Below are positions 7,790 to 13,256 of a DNA stretch of 30,514 bases, piece by piece. Numbering within the stretch: the stretch's first letter is position 1; each line of letters starts with the position of its first letter. The position numbers were made by a program, and so were the translations under genes. The DNA lies in the IMG/VR virus record IMGVR_UViG_3300027586_000029, positions 1 through 30,514 of that record; one strand, given 5' to 3'. The notes beneath the pieces were generated by a model that saw only the letters and a list, made by a program, of their open reading frames with translations, was not told the DNA's origin and searched no databases. The stretch is from a virus (taxonomy: Duplodnaviria > Caudoviricetes).

Positions 7790-8803
7790 ATGAGTAACCT
7801 TTTTAAAAAAGCTGCCGTTTTTACGGACATACATTTCGGTCTAAAGAGTAACAGTCTACAACATAATTTAGATTGTGCTAATTTTGTAGACTGGTTCATT
7901 AAGAAAGCAAAAGATGAAGGATGTGAAACTTGTTTCTTTCTTGGTGATTACAATCACCATAGAGCAAGTATTAACATCCACACTTTGCAATTTGGACTAC
8001 AGGCATTAGAAAAACTAAATGCTAACTTTGATAGAGTATATTTTATCCCAGGTAATCACGACCTTTATTATCGTGACCGCCGTGACATTCATAGTGTTGA
8101 ATGGGCTAAACATTTACCCAACGTACACATCATCAATGACTTCTTTAGTGACGGTGACGTTGTAATTACTCCCTGGCTTGTACAAGATGACTATAAGAAA
8201 GTTCAAAAGTTATCTGGTAAATACATGTTTGGTCATTTAGAATTACCCAGATTCTACATGAATGCTATGGTAGAGATGCCAGACCACGGTGAGATTAACG
8301 AAGACCATATGAAGGGTTTTGATAAAGTATTCAGTGGTCATTTTCATAAACGACAAGCACGTAAAAATATTTGGTATATCGGAAATGCTTTCCCTCACAA
8401 TTATGCTGATGCTGGCGATGACGGACGTGGCATGATGATATTAGAATGGGGAGAAGAACCAATATTTCATAGTTGGCCTAGACAACCCATTTTTAGAGTA
8501 CACAAACTTAGCGAGATACTAGAAAACCCTGAAGGGTTGCTATTGATTGACAGTCATGTTAGAGTACATCTTGATATTGATATTAGTTATGAAGAAGCAA
8601 ACTTCATACGTGAAACTATGATACCAGAACATAAACTACGTGAAATGACATTGATACCCATGAAAATGGAACAAACTGAAAATCAAGGCTTTGACGGTCT
8701 TAAGTTTGAAAGTGTAGACCAAATTGTCATCGACCAGATTAACAGTATTGAGTCAAATACTTTTGACAAAAAGATATTGTTAGAGATTTACAACAATCTA
8801 TGA
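7790..8803 (+). CDS. gp47: Recombination nuclease subunit (Mre11/SbcD-like)
   Basis: Metallophosphoesterase motifs DIHFG, LGD, GNHD, GHLE and SGHFH; upstream of the Rad50-like gene. Confidence 0.95.
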   Translation: MSNLFKKAAVFTDIHFGLKSNSLQHNLDCANFVDWFIKKAKDEGCETCFFLGDYNHHRASINIHTLQFGLQALEKLNANFDRVYFIPGNHDLYYRDRRDIHSVEWAKHLPNVHIINDFFSDGDVVITPWLVQDDYKKVQKLSGKYMFGHLELPRFYMNAMVEMPDHGEINEDHMKGFDKVFSGHFHKRQARKNIWYIGNAFPHNYADAGDDGRGMMILEWGEEPIFHSWPRQPIFRVHKLSEILENPEGLLLIDSHVRVHLDIDISYEEANFIRETMIPEHKLREMTLIPMKMEQTENQGFDGLKFESVDQIVIDQINSIESNTFDKKILLEIYNNL

Positions 8804-9021
8804 AGATACCCAGAGAAGTAAGAGAATTAGAATCATTGATTAAAGTAAACAAGCATTTGGGTATTGCGTTATCTGAGTTGACCAACACTCATTCTTATAT
8901 AGGTAGTTTAAGAGAACAAAAAAGTTTGATTAGAGTTAAACTTAAACTAGAAGGTATAATAGAACGAACATTGAAGGCTGAGAAATTAGCCAAGAACAGT
9001 TTTTTTAGAAAATTAAAATGA
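8800..9021 (+). CDS. Small basic hypothetical protein
   Basis: 73 aa. ATGA overlaps with both gp47 and gp46 suggest translational coupling. Confidence 0.65.
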   Translation: MKIPREVRELESLIKVNKHLGIALSELTNTHSYIGSLREQKSLIRVKLKLEGIIERTLKAEKLAKNSFFRKLK

Positions 9022-11093
9022 TAATATTAAAGAATATCACTCTCCGTAATTTTTTATCAATCGGACAGGTAACACAAGCAGTTAACTTTGACCGCCAAGA
9101 TTTAACACTTATCCTAGGTGAGAATTTAGACTTGGGTGGTGATGGTGCTCGTAATGGTACAGGTAAGACCAGTCTTATTCAAGGCTTAAGTTATGCATTG
9201 TTTGGTGTACCCATTAACAGTATCAGAAAAGATAATTTAGTTAATCGTACAAATGGAAAGGGTATGCTAGTTACATTAGAGTTTAGTGTAGGCGGCATAG
9301 ACTACAAGATTGAGCGTGGTCGTAAACCAAATCTGTTAAGATTTTATGTAAATAACGATTTACAAAAAGGTTTGGATGATGCACAGGGCGAAAACAAAGA
9401 AACACAGTCTCAAATTGAAAAGATACTGTGCATGTCTAGTAGTATGTTCCGGCACATTGTGGCATTGAATACATATAGTGAACCGTTTCTAGCATTAAAA
9501 TCAAATGAACAACGTGAAATTATTGAACAGTTATTGGGTATTACTTTATTAAGTGAGAAAGCAGAAGTTATTAAGACTATGCTTAAGAATACCAAAGATG
9601 ATATTCAAAGCGAAGAATTCAAAGTTAAGGCTGTTGAGGAAGCTAACAAACGGGTCAAAGAACAAATTGAAAGTTTGAAACGTAGACAAGGACTTTGGCA
9701 AAAGAAACATGAAAGTGACTTAGCATACTTAGTTGCACAATATAATGATCTTACCAAAATTAATATTGAGACCGAGTTGTTATCGCACAAAGAACTAGTC
9801 ATATGGAATCAAAAGAAAAAACAACAAGATACATATATCGCACTATTGGCTAGACAAACTGCGTGGAAACAAAAGCAAGAAAAAGATATATGTGACTTAG
9901 AAGATACTGCATTTAAAATGCAACATATCGACATTGTTACAGAAATACTAGCACATAGAGCCTTAGCTGAGTATAATACTAAAACAAAAGAACTAGCAGA
10001 CAGAGATAAAGAAGTTACTAGATTGGACAAAGACTTAGAAAAAGAAAATAAACTAGTTGCTAAGTTAGCATTAGAGATTGTTAAGTTAAAAGATCATACA
10101 TGTTATGCGTGTGGTCAATCATTCCACGATGAACAACATTCTACTGTTTTGGGTGATAAAGAACAATTACTAATCGAATCCAATGTTCATGTAAGAGCAT
10201 TAGCAAAACAATTACAAGAACTGAATGATAAAGAAATTATTGTTGCCGACAAAAAACCAAAGACGCATTACAAAACAGAAGCAGAAGCAATTCGTCACGG
10301 CAGTGATGCAGAAAATATTCGCACAAAGATACTTGAGAAAGAACTAGAAGTTGATCCATATGCAGAACAATTAGCAGAACTTACTATAGTTGAAGTGGGT
10401 CCCATGCCAGTTACTCATTATGATACCGAAACACAAGCAATTGAACATCGTAGTAAAGTATCCGGGCTATTACAAAATATGGAAACAAAGGCTGCTGAAA
10501 CTGATCCATATGATGAACAAGTAATAGAAATGGAATCTAATGCACTACAATCAATTGACTTTGATGCAATTAACAAACTAACAAAGACTATGGAACATCA
10601 AAAGTTTTTGTTAGATATCCTAACTAGTAAAGATAGTTTTGTTCGTAAGAAAATCATTGACCAAAACTTAAGTTACTTGAATAGTAGATTGACACATTAC
10701 TTAGATAAGATTGGGTTACCGCATCAAGTAGTATTTCAAAATGATTTAACGGTTGAAATTACTGAATTGGGTCGTGAACTTGACTTTGATAATCTAAGTC
10801 GGGGTGAACGTAATCGATTGATTCTAGGATTGAGTTTTGCATTCCGTGATGTATGGGAGAACTTATATGCTCCAATCAATACATTGTTCATTGATGAATT
10901 AATTGACAGTGGTCTAGACACAATGGGTGTTGAAAACGCTATTGCTATTCTTAAGGACATGTCACGTAGACGACATAAGTCTATTTGGCTTGTTAGTCAC
11001 CGCGAAGAATTAGCGGGTAGAGTACCTAGTGTATTAAAGGTTGTAAAAGAAAAGGGTTTCACGACCTATAGTACGTCAGTGGATATGGAATAA
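9018..11093 (+). CDS. gp46: Recombination ATPase subunit (Rad50/SbcC-like)
   Basis: Walker A NGTGKTS, coiled coil with zinc hook CYAC, signature LSRGE, Walker B LFIDE, H-loop VSH. Confidence 0.95.
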   Translation: MIILKNITLRNFLSIGQVTQAVNFDRQDLTLILGENLDLGGDGARNGTGKTSLIQGLSYALFGVPINSIRKDNLVNRTNGKGMLVTLEFSVGGIDYKIERGRKPNLLRFYVNNDLQKGLDDAQGENKETQSQIEKILCMSSSMFRHIVALNTYSEPFLALKSNEQREIIEQLLGITLLSEKAEVIKTMLKNTKDDIQSEEFKVKAVEEANKRVKEQIESLKRRQGLWQKKHESDLAYLVAQYNDLTKINIETELLSHKELVIWNQKKKQQDTYIALLARQTAWKQKQEKDICDLEDTAFKMQHIDIVTEILAHRALAEYNTKTKELADRDKEVTRLDKDLEKENKLVAKLALEIVKLKDHTCYACGQSFHDEQHSTVLGDKEQLLIESNVHVRALAKQLQELNDKEIIVADKKPKTHYKTEAEAIRHGSDAENIRTKILEKELEVDPYAEQLAELTIVEVGPMPVTHYDTETQAIEHRSKVSGLLQNMETKAAETDPYDEQVIEMESNALQSIDFDAINKLTKTMEHQKFLLDILTSKDSFVRKKIIDQNLSYLNSRLTHYLDKIGLPHQVVFQNDLTVEITELGRELDFDNLSRGERNRLILGLSFAFRDVWENLYAPINTLFIDELIDSGLDTMGVENAIAILKDMSRRRHKSIWLVSHREELAGRVPSVLKVVKEKGFTTYSTSVDME

Positions 11094-11113
11094 TTTCAAA
11101 GAGAGAATGCAGT

Positions 11114-11121
11114 GATAAGTA
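11114..11121 (+). promoter_or_regulatory. Late promoter variant (GATAAGTA)
   Basis: One mismatch to GATAAATA. It has the same 5-nt gap to the ATG as the portal gene promoter. Confidence 0.5.
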
Positions 11122-11126
11122 AGTCT

Positions 11127-11699
11127 ATGCCAAGTCCACAAAAAGCAAAAGGTTCAGGATACGAGAGAGAAGTTGCAAAATTTCTCTCAGAGTTATACGG
11201 AGAAAGTTTTATCCGTGCTCCTGGATCTGGTGCATATGTGGGTGGCAAGAATCAAGCCAGAACTCAGTTCTTACATGAGGGACAGATTCGTTCTTTTAAG
11301 GGCGATATTGTTCCAGGACAGAGTTTCAGCAAAATGAATGCAGAGTGTAAGTTCTATGCGGACTTTCCGTGGCACCTATTACTGACAGGTGAGTGCAAAC
11401 AACTTGATTCGTGGCTAGCGCAATTACTTGACGTAGAAGATACCGATGATTTAAACATTCTTTTTATGAAGTTTAATCGTAAGGGTCAATATGTAGCAGT
11501 ACAAGGTAAACTAACATGGAAGGCAGATAATTGTCTTTTCTATAGTAGCCCAACATACGGCGATTGGGTAATAATGGAGCATACTAGCTTTTTCAAAAAC
11601 AATGCAGAATTAGTAAAAAAATATTCAGGCACAACAACAGACACCAAGTCAAATAATATAGAAACAAAAGAATTTTTAGATTTAAAAACCGTAGGCTGA
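11127..11699 (+). CDS. PD-(D/E)XK nuclease, Hjc-like Holliday junction resolvase
   Basis: KAKGSGYEREVAKFL...GDIV...AECK motif order is typical of Hjc-type resolvases; follows gp46. Start placed at ATG 11127 (MPSPQK). Confidence 0.75.
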   Translation: MPSPQKAKGSGYEREVAKFLSELYGESFIRAPGSGAYVGGKNQARTQFLHEGQIRSFKGDIVPGQSFSKMNAECKFYADFPWHLLLTGECKQLDSWLAQLLDVEDTDDLNILFMKFNRKGQYVAVQGKLTWKADNCLFYSSPTYGDWVIMEHTSFFKNNAELVKKYSGTTTDTKSNNIETKEFLDLKTVG

Positions 11700-12044
11700 G
11701 TTTGTCAGTCCTCCTTGAGTTTGTACAGATTGTGCTGTGCTGACGGATCTGGAGTATGTACGTTAGCAATAGCGTAGAACACCGAGAGGGCAATCTTCAT
11801 AGGGAACCCTCAATGAGTCTGTAATTAACTCTATCTTGCGATTACAGAACATGCGTTGTCGAAGAACCAAATTGAATTTGGTAGCTTCACTACAGTCCCA
11901 TATTACTTTACAGGACAACCGGTGGCGAATAGTAACATAAAAAGTTAACTAGTCGGGGAATAGATGGCAAAGGATGACGGGCATGGCAAAGTTTTTCCAT
12001 TGGTAGTGCAAATTTGCACTACCATGGCTTCAAAGCGGCAAATT
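11699..12044 (+). ncRNA. Candidate large structured non-coding RNA of unknown class
   Basis: No credible ORF. Many nested stems with G-U pairs and a GCAA tetraloop on the + strand, plus possible 5'/3' end pairing (see findings). Boundaries are approximate. Confidence 0.6.
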
Positions 12045-12092
12045 ATATCTAATCCACTAGAATGAATAAAAAGTATAGTAAGTTTAAAACAT

Positions 12093-12153
12093 TACCGAAC
12101 GTAATACTGAGCGAAGCGAAGTATAAGTGAAGGTAGATGACCGAAGGTCATCT
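12093..12153 (+). other. Two GAA-triloop hairpins, primosome-assembly-site/ssi-like
   Basis: TACC-GA-AC..ATACT-GA-GCGAAGC-GA-AGTAT..GT-GA-A-GGTA and AGATGACC-GAA-GGTCATCT, flanked by AT-rich DNA. Confidence 0.5.
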
Positions 12154-12198
12154 TTAAAGAATAAGGTAATGTAGTTTAAGATAAATGAATAGATACGG

Positions 12199-12429
12199 TT
12201 AAAAGAATGGAAGACCTGATTTCTTAGTAGTATCCATGTTATCTTCAATAATTTTACTTATTGTTTTTCTTTCATTGATGCTCATGTTCAATATATCTAC
12301 ATAACTAGCACCGCCCCGCATATACCAAGACATCTTTAGTGAGCTAGATTTTATCTCCTCACATTCATTCTCCAATTGTTCTATTAGGCCCTTGATTCCC
12401 TCGGAGTCAAGCGAAAGGAGCCTTAACCG
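12199..12429 (-). CDS. 76-codon -1-frame extension of the gp26-like gene (GT-like/gp51-like segment)
   Basis: Not in the ORF track. Open frame RLRLLSLDSEGIKGLIEQLENECEEIKSSSLKMSWYMRGGASYVDILNMSINERKTISKIIEDNMDTTKKSGLPFF*. The first ATG is at 12333 and would give only 44 aa. Confidence 0.75.
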   Translation of the reverse strand, partial: RLRLLSLDSEGIKGLIEQLENECEEIKSSSLKMSWYMRGGASYVDILNMSINERKTISKIIEDNMDTTKKSGLPFF

Positions 12430-12435
12430 AAAAAA
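12387..12435 (-). promoter_or_regulatory. Putative -1 programmed ribosomal frameshift signal
   Basis: Slippery heptamer T TTT TTC (12435-12429) in X XXY YYZ phase, a 6-nt spacer, then a GC-rich stem-loop (12422-12387). Confidence 0.7.
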
Positions 12436-13256
12436 GTTGATGCGTTAATTGTAAACTCTTGGTCGTATTCGTGCTGACAATGCATACATCTAATATGTAA
12501 TGGTTTGTTCTCTGAGTTTTTACGCAACTCTAAGTTCACATTTTTAATTTCTTCAAATGTGTTTTTGTCTATGTTTCTTAAGAATTCTTCAATATATGAT
12601 GGGTCGAATACAGTTGCCTCAGGAGTCTTTATATATTCAATGGTTTTAGTCATTAATTCAATAGTCATATGATTAATAGTTTCTAAAACTTTAGACATTT
12701 TATCATTCTTTGTATTGGGTTCTTGTTCATTTTCCATATCAATCATCATACGTTGCAATTCAAATTGCATGATGTTAGTATTGTTAACTTCTTTATAAGA
12801 CAATGGTTTAAATCTTATAGATAGTTCACCTACAGTTAATGGAGTTTTATAGTCGCCGGGATTAAAGCCAGCTAGTAAGCCAGCTAAGTTCACATCATAT
12901 TTTGATGGTTCAGTACATTTAGGACAATTTGTTTCTATCTCCATTTCATTACCATTAGTAGCCATACGTATTGCTACTAATAATGGATCTAAGTCAACTA
13001 CTGGAATTTGCCATGGATCTAATATATTGGGAACACAACTTTTAATAATTTCAAAAACAGCTACTCCGTTATACAATGCATCCGGGGTTCTGCTAGTAAT
13101 TTCATCAATAGCAGTCATAGGATATACAGGTAATTCACCGTTTTCAGTCATTATTAATGTACCTTCAGCATATCCAGCGCCCTGAGAAGGTAGTTTTAGA
13201 TATAATGCCGGTCTACGAAAATATTGTTGTAGTGGGTTGCTAGTTAGTGTTGCCAT
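12423..13256 (-). CDS. gp26: Baseplate hub/tail assembly chaperone, T4 gp26/gp51 family
   Basis: LKLPS.G..Y...VYPMTAIDE...DLDPLLVAIRMAT.G...CPKC and a second CMHC, ending STFFG. Start placed at ATG 13256 because the track's TTG start is part of the GGAGA RBS. Confidence 0.7.
   Translation of the reverse strand: MATLTSNPLQQYFRRPALYLKLPSQGAGYAEGTLIMTENGELPVYPMTAIDEITSRTPDALYNGVAVFEIIKSCVPNILDPWQIPVVDLDPLLVAIRMATNGNEMEIETNCPKCTEPSKYDVNLAGLLAGFNPGDYKTPLTVGELSIRFKPLSYKEVNNTNIMQFELQRMMIDMENEQEPNTKNDKMSKVLETINHMTIELMTKTIEYIKTPEATVFDPSYIEEFLRNIDKNTFEEIKNVNLELRKNSENKPLHIRCMHCQHEYDQEFTINASTFFG

What the first reader, a model, noticed from the sequence alone, without database searches (positions are those of the whole stretch)
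11699..12044. Candidate ~345-nt structured RNA directly behind the Hjc-like nuclease
Seen: this is the only long non-coding gap in a densely packed window, and it is more GC-rich than other spacers. Stems found by eye: 11701-09/11739-47 (three G-U) with inner hairpin 11723-35 and a possible CTCC/GGAG pseudoknot (11711-14/11751-54); TACGTTA-GCAA-TAGCGTA (11759-76, GNRA loop); GAGGG/CCCTC (11786-11811); 11818-26/11840-48; a multibranch domain closed by CATGC/GCATG (11850-54/11981-85) holding GTTGTC/GACAAC, ACCAAAT/ATTTGGT and 11926-55; and possible end pairing 11699-11706/12037-44. G-U pairs and the GNRA loop favour a + strand RNA. I cannot match it to tRNA, tmRNA or RNase P. Inference: an unclassified phage ncRNA, perhaps co-transcribed from the promoter at 11114. 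Possible roles are replication primer, nuclease partner or ribozyme.
Basis: partly seen in the sequence, partly recalled or inferred. Interest (0 to 1): 0.85.

Follow-up and report, generated by a model that had tools for sequence, protein, structure and literature searches.

The report
Knotted phage RNA that grips DNA
This uncultured giant lake phage carries a conserved, double-knotted non-coding RNA of about 350 bases whose tail holds two short segments that always mutate together, so one of them likely pairs back onto the DNA it was copied from and would open that DNA to start replication; look-alike elements sit in lab-grown E. coli giant phages.

Summary
The RNA is real: window about 11690-12045, + strand, found behind the resolvase in 80 of 80 relatives. 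In 117 unique copies, compensatory changes support ten helices and two pseudoknots, and there is a probable base triple. No Rfam family matches.

The key feature is a direct repeat, R1 (11981-89) and R2 (12035-41), flanking the last hairpin. The two covary by identity, with no complementary partner nearby: 58 G/G, 20 U/U, about 11 changes on a gene tree. Homologous RNAs behind a GIY-YIG nuclease do the same, and their mismatches run one way (17 versus 0), as expected if R1 pairs with the strand complementary to R2. Cultured Rak2-like phages (121Q, GAP32) have the same 3' layout in this slot and in 3-5 dispersed, co-oriented copies, each matched to itself; their sequence homology to this RNA is not shown.

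Best reading (0.45, untested): a ColE1 RNA II-like primer precursor that clamps its own template DNA and exposes GAA mini-hairpins downstream. Against it: a late-type promoter, no skew signal, no RNase HI gene. This scan met this RNA on other DNA before, and one note proposed the same mechanism for a relative.

The parts
11115..11121 (+). ATAAGTA late-type promoter-like motif before the resolvase; likely drives a resolvase+RNA transcript
   Evidence: Present in most of the 25 commonest upstream 16-mers among 54 parsed relatives; resembles the ATAAATA motif called a probable late promoter in CBB (PMC5259590 passage); no sigma-70 match in 10900-12500
11127..11699 (+). PD-(D/E)XK nuclease, annotated as Holliday junction resolvase family; neighbour, not shown to be a partner
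   Evidence: PF24608 E 1e-23; phrog_244 E 2e-18
11690..12045 (+). Structured non-coding RNA, about 355 nt; ends inferred from conservation
   Evidence: 80 of 80 loci; profile match 11690-12048; covariation
11694..11710 (+). 5' hairpin
   Evidence: 5 of 6 pairs with two-sided changes
11711..11754 (+). Invariant CUCC/GGAG helix with invariant CUCCUUGA and CUGGAG, enclosing a variable stem-loop; shared with the GIY-YIG-clade RNAs
   Evidence: 100% paired, invariant; cross-family profile hit E 4e-9
11759..11776 (+). Variable hairpin flanked by AGUA and GGAA (loop-E-like motif, label recalled)
   Evidence: 7 of 7 pairs with two-sided changes
11780..11924 (+). Central multibranch domain closed by 11780-84/11920-24; holds hairpins 11786-811 and 11813-52 and helix 11855-60/11914-19 with hairpin 11861-88; probable base triple 11907 with pair 11780-11924
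   Evidence: 11907 covaries with 11924 as a complement and with 11780 by identity
11831..11967 (+). Pseudoknot 1: loop 11831-36 with 11962-67
   Evidence: 0.98 paired, 5 of 6 pairs with two-sided changes; slid controls 0.35-0.47
11896..11959 (+). Pseudoknot 2: 11896-99 with 11956-59
   Evidence: 0.95 paired, 3 of 4 pairs with two-sided changes; one slid control reaches 0.90 because of the G and C runs
11926..11955 (+). Hairpin with internal loop
   Evidence: 7 of 8 and 2 of 3 pairs with two-sided changes
11981..11989 (+). R1, GCAUGGCAA: a copy of R2 with a 2-nt insert; predicted to pair with the template DNA strand at R2
   Evidence: Identity covariation with 12035
12001..12024 (+). 3' hairpin between R1 and R2; possibly preceded by a short helix 11976-80/12028-31
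   Evidence: 0.99 paired, 1 of 9 two-sided; short helix 0.94 paired, 0 of 4 two-sided
12035..12041 (+). R2, GCGGCAA; conservation drops right after it
12111..12153 (+). Tail behind an A+T-rich tether: GCGAAGC (12111-17) and an 8-bp hairpin with a C-GAA-G loop (12135-53), on the non-template strand
   Evidence: Sequence; 74 of 96 tails have a C-GNA-G triloop (65 GAA, 8 GTA, 1 GCA), median 83 nt past R2; 12045-12200 is 31% GC

Best explanation
The locus encodes a conserved, double-pseudoknotted RNA whose segment R1 likely pairs with the template DNA strand at R2, about 50 bases downstream in its own gene, and so would anchor a persistent RNA-DNA hybrid (R-loop) that likely serves as a replication origin or primer, in the manner of ColE1 RNA II. 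Shown: the fold; the R1 = R2 identity rule in three sequence families; the one-way wobble mismatches in the GIY-YIG clades; the downstream A+T-rich tether and GNA-triloop hairpins on the strand that would be displaced. Inferred: that the partner of R1 is template DNA (about 0.65); that the hybrid extends into the tail; that the displaced hairpins load a primase or helicase; that a host or phage RNase H, or the RNA end itself, gives the primer.
For: (1) 11981/12035: 58 G/G, 20 U/U and no discordant row in 78 parsed of 97 loci; 11 changes by parsimony on a tree of the flanking genes; no other column from 750 nt before to 500 nt after carries more than 0.28 of the 0.82 bits. Neighbouring bases co-change too. 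(2) GIY-YIG clades, 21 repeat haplotypes from 59 of 63 sequences: five core states, each shared by R1 and R2 (identity of the 7-nt core was the selection rule). At the next two, unselected positions 17 mismatches are R1 = G/R2 = A or R1 = U/R2 = C, 0 are the reverse and 5 are other. After a G/A wobble the next base matches in 11 of 11 and the one after in 10 of 11. That is the pattern of R1 pairing with the complement of R2. (3) Cultured phages: 22 copies in five genomes; R1/R2 columns agree 22 of 22, 22 of 22 and 21 of 22 (the exception is G/A); copies within one genome differ from each other yet match themselves; no complementary third column. A partner shared genome-wide would not give this. 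(4) Those copies lie on one strand, 4-5 per genome (3 found in RaK2), about 50-110 kb apart outside RaK2, most behind a TATAAT promoter of the class found before DNA-synthesis genes in CBB (PMC5259590). (5) Precedent: ColE1 needs an rG stretch of the RNA to interact with a dC stretch of the template strand (PMC4412123 passage); T4 uses several promoter-plus-unwinding-element R-loop origins (PMC3016281 passages). (6) A copy with R1/R2 intact lies in a small integrase-bearing island in 2 of 5426 E. coli genomes (one island read), as a satellite origin might. (7) No RVT_1 reverse transcriptase in 5 of 5 complete genomes of the window's clade.
Against: No replication data exist. Four-fold-site GC skew follows gene direction on both sides of the RNA and shows no origin signal. 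The window's clade has one copy per genome (5 of 5; no distant paralogue in two genomes read in full) and a late-type promoter motif, whereas T4 oriF and oriG use middle promoters. No RNase HI (PF00075) in 5 of 5 genomes; the T4-type RNase H family was not tested. The 121Q-type RNA gives no significant profile match to this RNA (best E 0.11, in the tail), so points 3, 4 and 6 transfer by synteny and layout only. In the window's own clade the polarity is weak: 9 versus 4 in a noisy automatic register; 4 G/A, 1 A/G, 3 other discordant and 15 unparsed of 89 haplotypes. The predicted hybrid is short (7-8 Watson-Crick pairs with a bulge). No antisense regulator like RNA I was looked for.
Confidence: 0.45

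Rival explanations
1. R1 does grip its own template DNA, but the R-loop serves something other than origin priming: it controls pausing or termination at the convergent gp26/gp51 boundary, or marks a branched substrate for the neighbouring nuclease in late recombination or packaging.
For: Same repeat data. A nuclease gene sits next to the slot in the window clade, the GIY-YIG clades and most cultured relatives. The promoter motif is late-type. Several 121Q-type copies have a hairpin plus U-run between R1 and R2.
Against: The nuclease family changes (PD-(D/E)XK, GIY-YIG, EndoVII) and its orientation flips. Three other 121Q copies have no adjacent annotated nuclease and are not at convergent gene boundaries.
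Confidence: 0.18
2. A free, trans-acting ornate RNA like GOLLD or ROOL, in which R1 and R2 match because they form like-with-like non-canonical pairs, symmetric contacts in an oligomer, or twin binding sites for one protein.
For: Rich tertiary signal (two pseudoknots, a triple). Several repeat cores (CAUG, CGUG, UAUG) are self-complementary with wobble. RNA-library contigs cover the RNA.
Against: Self-pairing would not demand identity. One-way G/A and U/C mismatches fit pairing with a complement. Copies within one genome carry different R1/R2 states, which argues against one shared protein.
Confidence: 0.2
3. The partner of R1 is a small antisense RNA transcribed across R2 from the opposite strand, not DNA.
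For: It would give the same identity rule and the same polarity; the gp26/gp51 genes converge on the tail.
Against: Such an RNA would pair better with R2 itself unless the sense RNA stopped before R2; one RNA-library contig of a relative runs ten bases past R2. Three other 121Q copies lack the convergent operon.
Confidence: 0.07
4. A template RNA for a reverse transcriptase that realigns between the repeats (telomerase- or DRT2-like; comparison recalled).
For: A direct repeat flanking a 45-100 nt region is what such templates look like.
Against: No RVT_1 gene in 5 complete genomes. Repeat-making realignment predicts the opposite wobble polarity (0 of 17). Spacing varies freely and no reading frame is kept. 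No tandem copies in the genomes.
Confidence: 0.04
5. A new ribozyme (cleavage, splicing or circularisation) that treats R1 and R2 as alternative substrates.
For: Many invariant unpaired bases (CUCCUUGA, ACUACAG, AUGGCUUC) and a compact knotted core.
Against: An internal guide would covary as a complement and none was found. No Rfam ribozyme match. No R2-to-R1 joint in seven RNA runs laid as contigs, which is weak.
Confidence: 0.06

Closest known systems
ColE1 RNA II primer precursor and origin (PMC5043065 and PMC4412123, passages read)
   Same: A long non-coding RNA whose fold matters; an RNA segment that interacts with the template strand of its own locus further downstream; a displaced non-template strand offered to helicase or primase (inferred here).
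   Different: No sequence or Rfam similarity. Here the anchor is a variable mixed-sequence 7-10-mer with a bulge, not a G run. Phage, not plasmid. No RNA I counterpart known. Hybrid and priming untested.
Phage T4 R-loop origins oriF and oriG (PMC3016281, passages read)
   Same: T4-related phage; transcript followed by an A+T-rich region; several dispersed sites in the 121Q-type relatives.
   Different: T4 R-loops need no specific sequence or fold (about 100 bp, middle promoter plus unwinding element); this element is a 350-550 nt conserved structure, single-copy and behind a late-type motif in the window's clade.
GOLLD, ROOL and OLE large ornate RNAs (search listing; otherwise recalled)
   Same: Large, intricate, phage-borne RNA of unknown function.
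   Different: No Rfam match at gathering or E-value thresholds; shorter; I recall no self-matching repeat or hairpin tail for them.
Polynucleobacter-1 motif (RF01718; PMC2864571, table row and supplement passages)
   Same: Freshwater motif that an earlier scan note tied to a related slot RNA.
   Different: No hit at E 10 in the window or four related records, nor in 12 loci at E 0.5.
PA5oct ncRNA004 (246116-246734, +; PMC7318152, Table 1 passage)
   Same: A paralogue of the non-coding element in the same gp26-resolvase slot of PA5oct matches at 246155-246276, inside a transcript seen by RNA-seq.
   Different: Only a 130-nt module is shared among the PA5oct copies; no sequence match to this RNA and no clear R1/R2 pair.

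Membership tests
Any Rfam 15 family (RNase P, tmRNA, group I/II introns, GOLLD, ROOL, OLE, HEARO) | Covariance-model score at or above the gathering threshold | tested here: not met
   0 hits in the window; best E 0.48 in 11500-12450; 0 in 17 and in 12 related loci
tRNA / tmRNA | tRNA-like domain, tag frame | tested here: not met
   ARAGORN found 0 genes
Polynucleobacter-1 (RF01718) | Match to the family model | tested here: not met
ColE1-type RNA II origin | Sequence or structure homology to RNA II / RNA I | tested here: inconclusive
   No Rfam hit and the 121Q-type element has no match in 72,556 plasmids; no direct alignment to RNA II was made, and the window RNA was not searched against plasmids
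ColE1-type RNA II origin | An upstream RNA segment pairs with the template strand near the origin | tested here: inconclusive
   Predicted by identity covariation and wobble polarity; the hybrid itself was not observed
ColE1-type RNA II origin | Persistent hybrid, RNase H cut, priming of DNA synthesis | not testable with these tools
   Needs biochemistry; no PF00075 gene in 5 phage genomes, though ColE1 itself relies on a host enzyme (recalled)
ColE1-type RNA II origin | Antisense RNA I over the 5' end | not tested
   No stranded reads were available
T4 oriF/oriG-type origin | Middle-mode promoter directly upstream | tested here: not met
   No sigma-70-like site in 10900-12500; the motif before the resolvase is late-type. 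The 121Q-type copies do have TATAAT promoters
T4 oriF/oriG-type origin | A+T-rich unwinding element downstream | tested here: inconclusive
   Tail 31% GC against 43% in the RNA, but no lower than other spacers
Replication origin (any) | Strand-independent switch of nucleotide skew | tested here: not met
   Four-fold-site skew follows gene sense on both sides
Retron / DRT / telomerase-type template RNA | Reverse transcriptase gene beside it or in the genome | tested here: not met
   0 of 5 complete genomes for PF00078
Guide RNA of an RNA-guided nuclease (omega, bridge, tracr types) | Fixed partner protein family encoded next to the RNA | tested here: not met
   PD-(D/E)XK, GIY-YIG and EndoVII alternate in the slot; no annotated nuclease adjacent to three 121Q copies

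The most novel reading that the evidence does not exclude
A whole branch of giant T4-related phages, from lake and sea viruses to coliphage 121Q, starts replication with an ornate, pseudoknotted RNA that recognises its own template DNA through a freely variable, bulged 7-10-base guide: a sequence-programmed RNA initiator, unrelated to ColE1 RNA II, that small chromosomal islands have also borrowed.
Probability: 0.35. Interest if true: 0.95.

Novelty: new variant of a known kind. Interest (0 to 1): 0.83.

Why it matters
It adds an uncatalogued class of large knotted RNA and, unlike most such RNAs, one with a sequence rule that points to a mechanism: R1 must equal its own R2. I found no described origin for Rak2-like jumbo phages in the passages read on CBB, fEgEco12 and PA5oct. 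If the reading holds, these phages use an RNA-programmed R-loop origin. The look-alike copies in 121Q, PBECO4 and Sharanji make this testable in laboratory E. coli with a two-base swap-and-rescue experiment. If it fails, the repeat rule still constrains what this RNA class does.

Tried and rejected
Rfam at gathering and E-value thresholds: nothing; RF01718 alone: nothing. ARAGORN: nothing. blastn of the RNA against 50,697 cultured-phage records: no match. A 16-base motif in GTDB genomes gave 120 loci, none matching the profile beyond the motif's neighbourhood, so no host clue. Two loose gapped motifs in IMG/VR returned mostly chance hits but led to locus L362. By-eye likeness to RNase P conserved regions, group I P7 and group II domains 1, 3 and 5 (recalled) did not hold in order or pairing. 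An AUG-led small ORF from R1 is not conserved in frame or length (by eye). GC skew at 10-kb scale seemed to turn near the RNA, but gene by gene it follows coding direction; the main switch in gene direction lies 5-7 kb upstream in two syntenic genomes, too weak to count. No third column complements R1 or R2; a weak 11710/12037 signal rests on few sequences. Regular-expression picks of R1 failed for 8 of 22 rows, 2 of 22, L060 and L490; counts quoted come from alignment columns or. Profiles of the 3' module did not link the 121Q type to the other types. No R1/R2 pair could be fixed in PA5oct, Phosso or XacN1. RaK2 has no such element in this slot. RNA-library contigs give no strand, end or level; lack of cover at 12128-12311 in four runs and the absence of joints prove nothing. 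Ten paper searches found no description; the novelty-directed ones were 14, 16, 33, 77, 102 and 111. The alignment supplements of PMC10690425 (files 1, 2, 4) and of PMC5737381 could not be searched, so a sub-domain of 29-151 nt may already be listed there.

Full report
Setting. The window is a piece of an uncultured T4-related giant phage: late sigma factor, SbcD, SbcC and a PD-(D/E)XK resolvase-family gene on the + strand, then a 723-nt gap (11700-12422), then a convergent gp26-like gene, portal, protease and capsid genes. The top capsid matches among cultured phages are Vibrio 2.275.O, PA5oct, Phosso and 121Q/PBECO4 at 64-67% identity. Five complete genomes of the clade are 352-525 kb.

The observation. 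The gap is the only one of 450 nt or more in the window. The stretch 11699-12044 is 43% GC against 16-36% in nine other spacers and folds at z = -3.1. All 80 best resolvase loci in IMG/VR carry the RNA directly behind the gene, 78 of them with the gp26 gene beyond it. Searching the other way with a 15-base motif, 75 of the 80 loci fetched with flanks held the RNA, and 71 of those the resolvase. An alignment of 117 unique full-length copies (mean identity 69%, about 70 clusters at 90%) supports by two-sided changes: the 5' hairpin 11694-710, an inner stem near 11720-43, hairpin 11759-76, helix 11780-84/11920-24, hairpins 11786-811 and 11813-52, helix 11855-60/11914-19, hairpins 11861-88 and 11926-55, hairpin 12001-24 (1 of 9 pairs only), and two pseudoknots, 11831-36/11962-67 and 11896-99/11956-59. 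Position 11907 follows the pair 11780-11924, as in a base triple. Weighted G-U pairs outnumber A-C 174 to 41, which fixes the + strand. Controls were slid pairings only; R-scape was not available. Nothing in Rfam, ARAGORN or the cultured-phage collection matches.

Expression. Eighteen RNA-library runs from lakes, other fresh water and one marine sample hold part of the region; seven of them and one run of unknown kind were laid, all as contigs. Pieces with no difference from the window cover 11616-11956, 11709-11982, 11590-11900, 11590-11916, 11706-11847 and 11939-12111; three of these bridge the end of the resolvase gene and the RNA. A 490-nt contig of a related strain runs from the resolvase end to ten bases past R2 and stops. 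Contigs cannot show strand, ends or level, and DNA in the libraries is not excluded, so this is only consistent with transcription.

The unusual signal. The strongest non-complementary covariation links 11981 and 12035 by identity. In 78 parsed of 97 loci the aligned columns read G/G 58 times and U/U 20 times, never mixed; the state changes about 11 times on a tree of the flanking genes; no other column in about 1.6 kb follows it. The two positions start a direct repeat around the last hairpin: R1 GCAUGGCAA (11981-89) and R2 GCGGCAA (12035-41). R1 usually has a 1-2 base insert, and rarer variants change both copies together. In the larger set, 89 haplotypes parse as 48 G/G, 15 U/U, 3 A/A, 4 G/A, 1 A/G, 3 other and 15 unparsed.

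Relatives with another nuclease. Locus L362 has a GIY-YIG gene (PF19835) in the resolvase slot and a diverged RNA behind it. Eighty such loci gave 63 unique downstream sequences: three clusters of 15, 21 and 23, and four others. Profile hits chain them to the window RNA through the 5' module (E 4e-9; 9 of 106 sequences hit) and the tail (E 4e-5; 5 of 80 loci). All three clusters end in repeat, hairpin, repeat, hairpin tail. In 21 repeat haplotypes five 7-nt core states occur, each the same in R1 and R2; that identity was the selection rule, while anchored R2 by its context and found the same cores. At the next two positions 17 mismatches are G/A or U/C (R1/R2), none is the reverse and 5 are other. 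After a G/A mismatch the next base is identical in 11 of 11, in four different letters. G/A and U/C are the mismatches that become wobble pairs if R1 pairs with the strand complementary to R2. These haplotypes are related, so the counts are not independent events. In the window's own clade the polarity is weak (9 versus 4 in a noisy register).

Cultured look-alikes. Phages 121Q, GAP32, BF, Munch, Ecwhy_1, XbC2, fHe-Yen9-04, EJP2, Hallingskeid and A4 have an unannotated or spuriously annotated gap of about 700-1000 nt between gp26/gp51 and an endonuclease VII-type gene. It holds a conserved element of about 520 nt, oriented toward gp51 as in the window, ending in repeat, hairpin, repeat, hairpin tail. 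RaK2, SCTP-2 and Atu_ph07 show no such element in this slot. The 121Q element matches 72 phage records and recurs on one strand at 90, 193, 247 and 327 kb in 121Q, at five places each in GAP32, BF and Munch, and at three in RaK2. Across these 22 copies three variable R1/R2 columns agree 22, 22 and 21 times, the exception being G/A; copies in one genome differ from one another yet match themselves; no column is complementary. Most copies follow a TATAAT promoter of the class that PMC5259590 (passages) places before DNA-synthesis genes. Three other 121Q copies have no annotated nuclease beside them. One of two E. coli chromosomal hits was read: it lies in a small integrase-bearing island and keeps the repeat. 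Sequence homology between this type and the window RNA is not shown (best E 0.11): the link is slot, orientation and 3' layout. In PA5oct the same slot holds a different non-coding element, one paralogue of which falls inside ncRNA004, seen by RNA-seq (PMC7318152 passages). In Phosso an RNase HI gene borders the gap.

Mechanism. A rule that two segments of one transcript stay identical, copy by copy, with one-way wobble and no complement in the RNA, is most simply met if R1 pairs with the template DNA strand at R2. As polymerase passes R2, the folded RNA would hand R1 to the template and keep the bubble open, and the transcript would stay hybridised through the A+T-rich tether. The displaced + strand would then fold its hairpins: 74 of 96 tails have a C-GNA-G triloop about 83 nt past R2, a loop type I recall as typical of stable DNA mini-hairpins at single-strand priming signals. 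ColE1 works this way: an rG stretch of RNA II interacts with a dC stretch of the template to form the persistent hybrid (PMC4412123 and PMC5043065, passages). T4 uses several R-loop origins, though without a structured RNA (PMC3016281, passages). Dispersed, co-oriented copies fit several one-way origins. Each step after the repeat rule is inference.

Against. Skew shows no origin. The window's clade has a single copy behind a late-type ATAAGTA motif and no sigma-70 site. No RNase HI gene was found in five genomes. The hybrid would be short. I put template pairing at about 0.65 and an origin or primer role at 0.45; a cis R-loop with another job at 0.18; a free ornate RNA at 0.2; antisense partner, ribozyme and reverse-transcriptase template below 0.1 each (no reverse transcriptase in 5 of 5 genomes).

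Novelty. Not in Rfam, and not found by the paper searches. PMC10690425 (first fifth read) lists only motifs of 29-151 nt; its alignment files and those of PMC5737381 could not be searched. PMC10085705 (abstract and one section), PMC13070987 and PMC2864571 (passages; supplements searched for one motif name) do not describe it in what I saw. Earlier notes of this scan describe this RNA type and its tail in other lake phages, the multi-copy Rak2-type RNA, and, for a GIY-YIG-type relative, the same idea of an RNA gripping its own DNA. I had noted the repeat rule and that model, before seeing that last note; earlier look-ups had shown origin suggestions for the tail, which their follow-ups did not support. 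These notes are leads, not support. Verdict: a real, uncatalogued large RNA that probably works like a known kind of RNA-primed origin, without being a member of any described family.

Noticed in passing
window 12429-12435 (- strand) and about 12199-12435: The gp26-like gene ends on a TTTTTTC run, and another frame opens there and runs about 75 codons to the gp51-like C-terminus: a likely programmed -1 frameshift, as earlier scan notes report for relatives.
   Followed up: partly
window 12179-12187: A conserved ATAAATG motif on the + strand behind the hairpin tail looks like a late promoter pointing antisense into gp51/gp26.
   Followed up: no
L483, L488, L490, L493, L500, L510, L511, L513, L515: The GIY-YIG gene, RNA and tail are inverted as one unit relative to SbcC and gp26.
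   Followed up: no
L021, L026, L060, L079 at the position of window 11766: Insertions of 20-60 nt extend the 11759-76 hairpin without disturbing the core: a tolerant site for tags.
   Followed up: no
L466-L520 cluster, L512, L517, L518: In this cluster the middle of the RNA is replaced by different domains while the 3' repeat module stays: a modular family.
   Followed up: partly
G005:223696-241791 and G001:3839-5459: Several ORF-free gaps of 0.6-1.8 kb, 36-46% GC, in two complete lake-phage genomes; tRNA arrays or further RNAs.
   Followed up: no
L728:4752-15302 (E. coli NZ_AP027515): Small island behind the ffs gene with an IS3-interrupted integrase, a 121Q-type RNA element and DUF4326, DUF488 and dual-OB genes; possible satellite of Rak2-like phages.
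   Followed up: partly
L202:1480-2990; PA5oct 12900 and 246155: PA5oct keeps a different three-copy non-coding element in the same slot; one copy coincides with published ncRNA004.
   Followed up: partly
L203:1986-3000 (Sinorhizobium phage Phosso): A 1-kb gap between RNase HI and the resolvase carries GCGAAG and C-GAA-G hairpins, on the opposite strand relative to gp26 compared with the window.
   Followed up: partly
L694 and L699 (RaK2, 280 kb and 191 kb): These two distant copies are identical over long stretches of their 3' halves while their 5' halves differ, suggesting gene conversion.
   Followed up: no
window 8800-9021 (+): A 73-codon ORF with no Pfam or PHROG match is wedged between SbcD and SbcC, overlapping both.
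   Followed up: no
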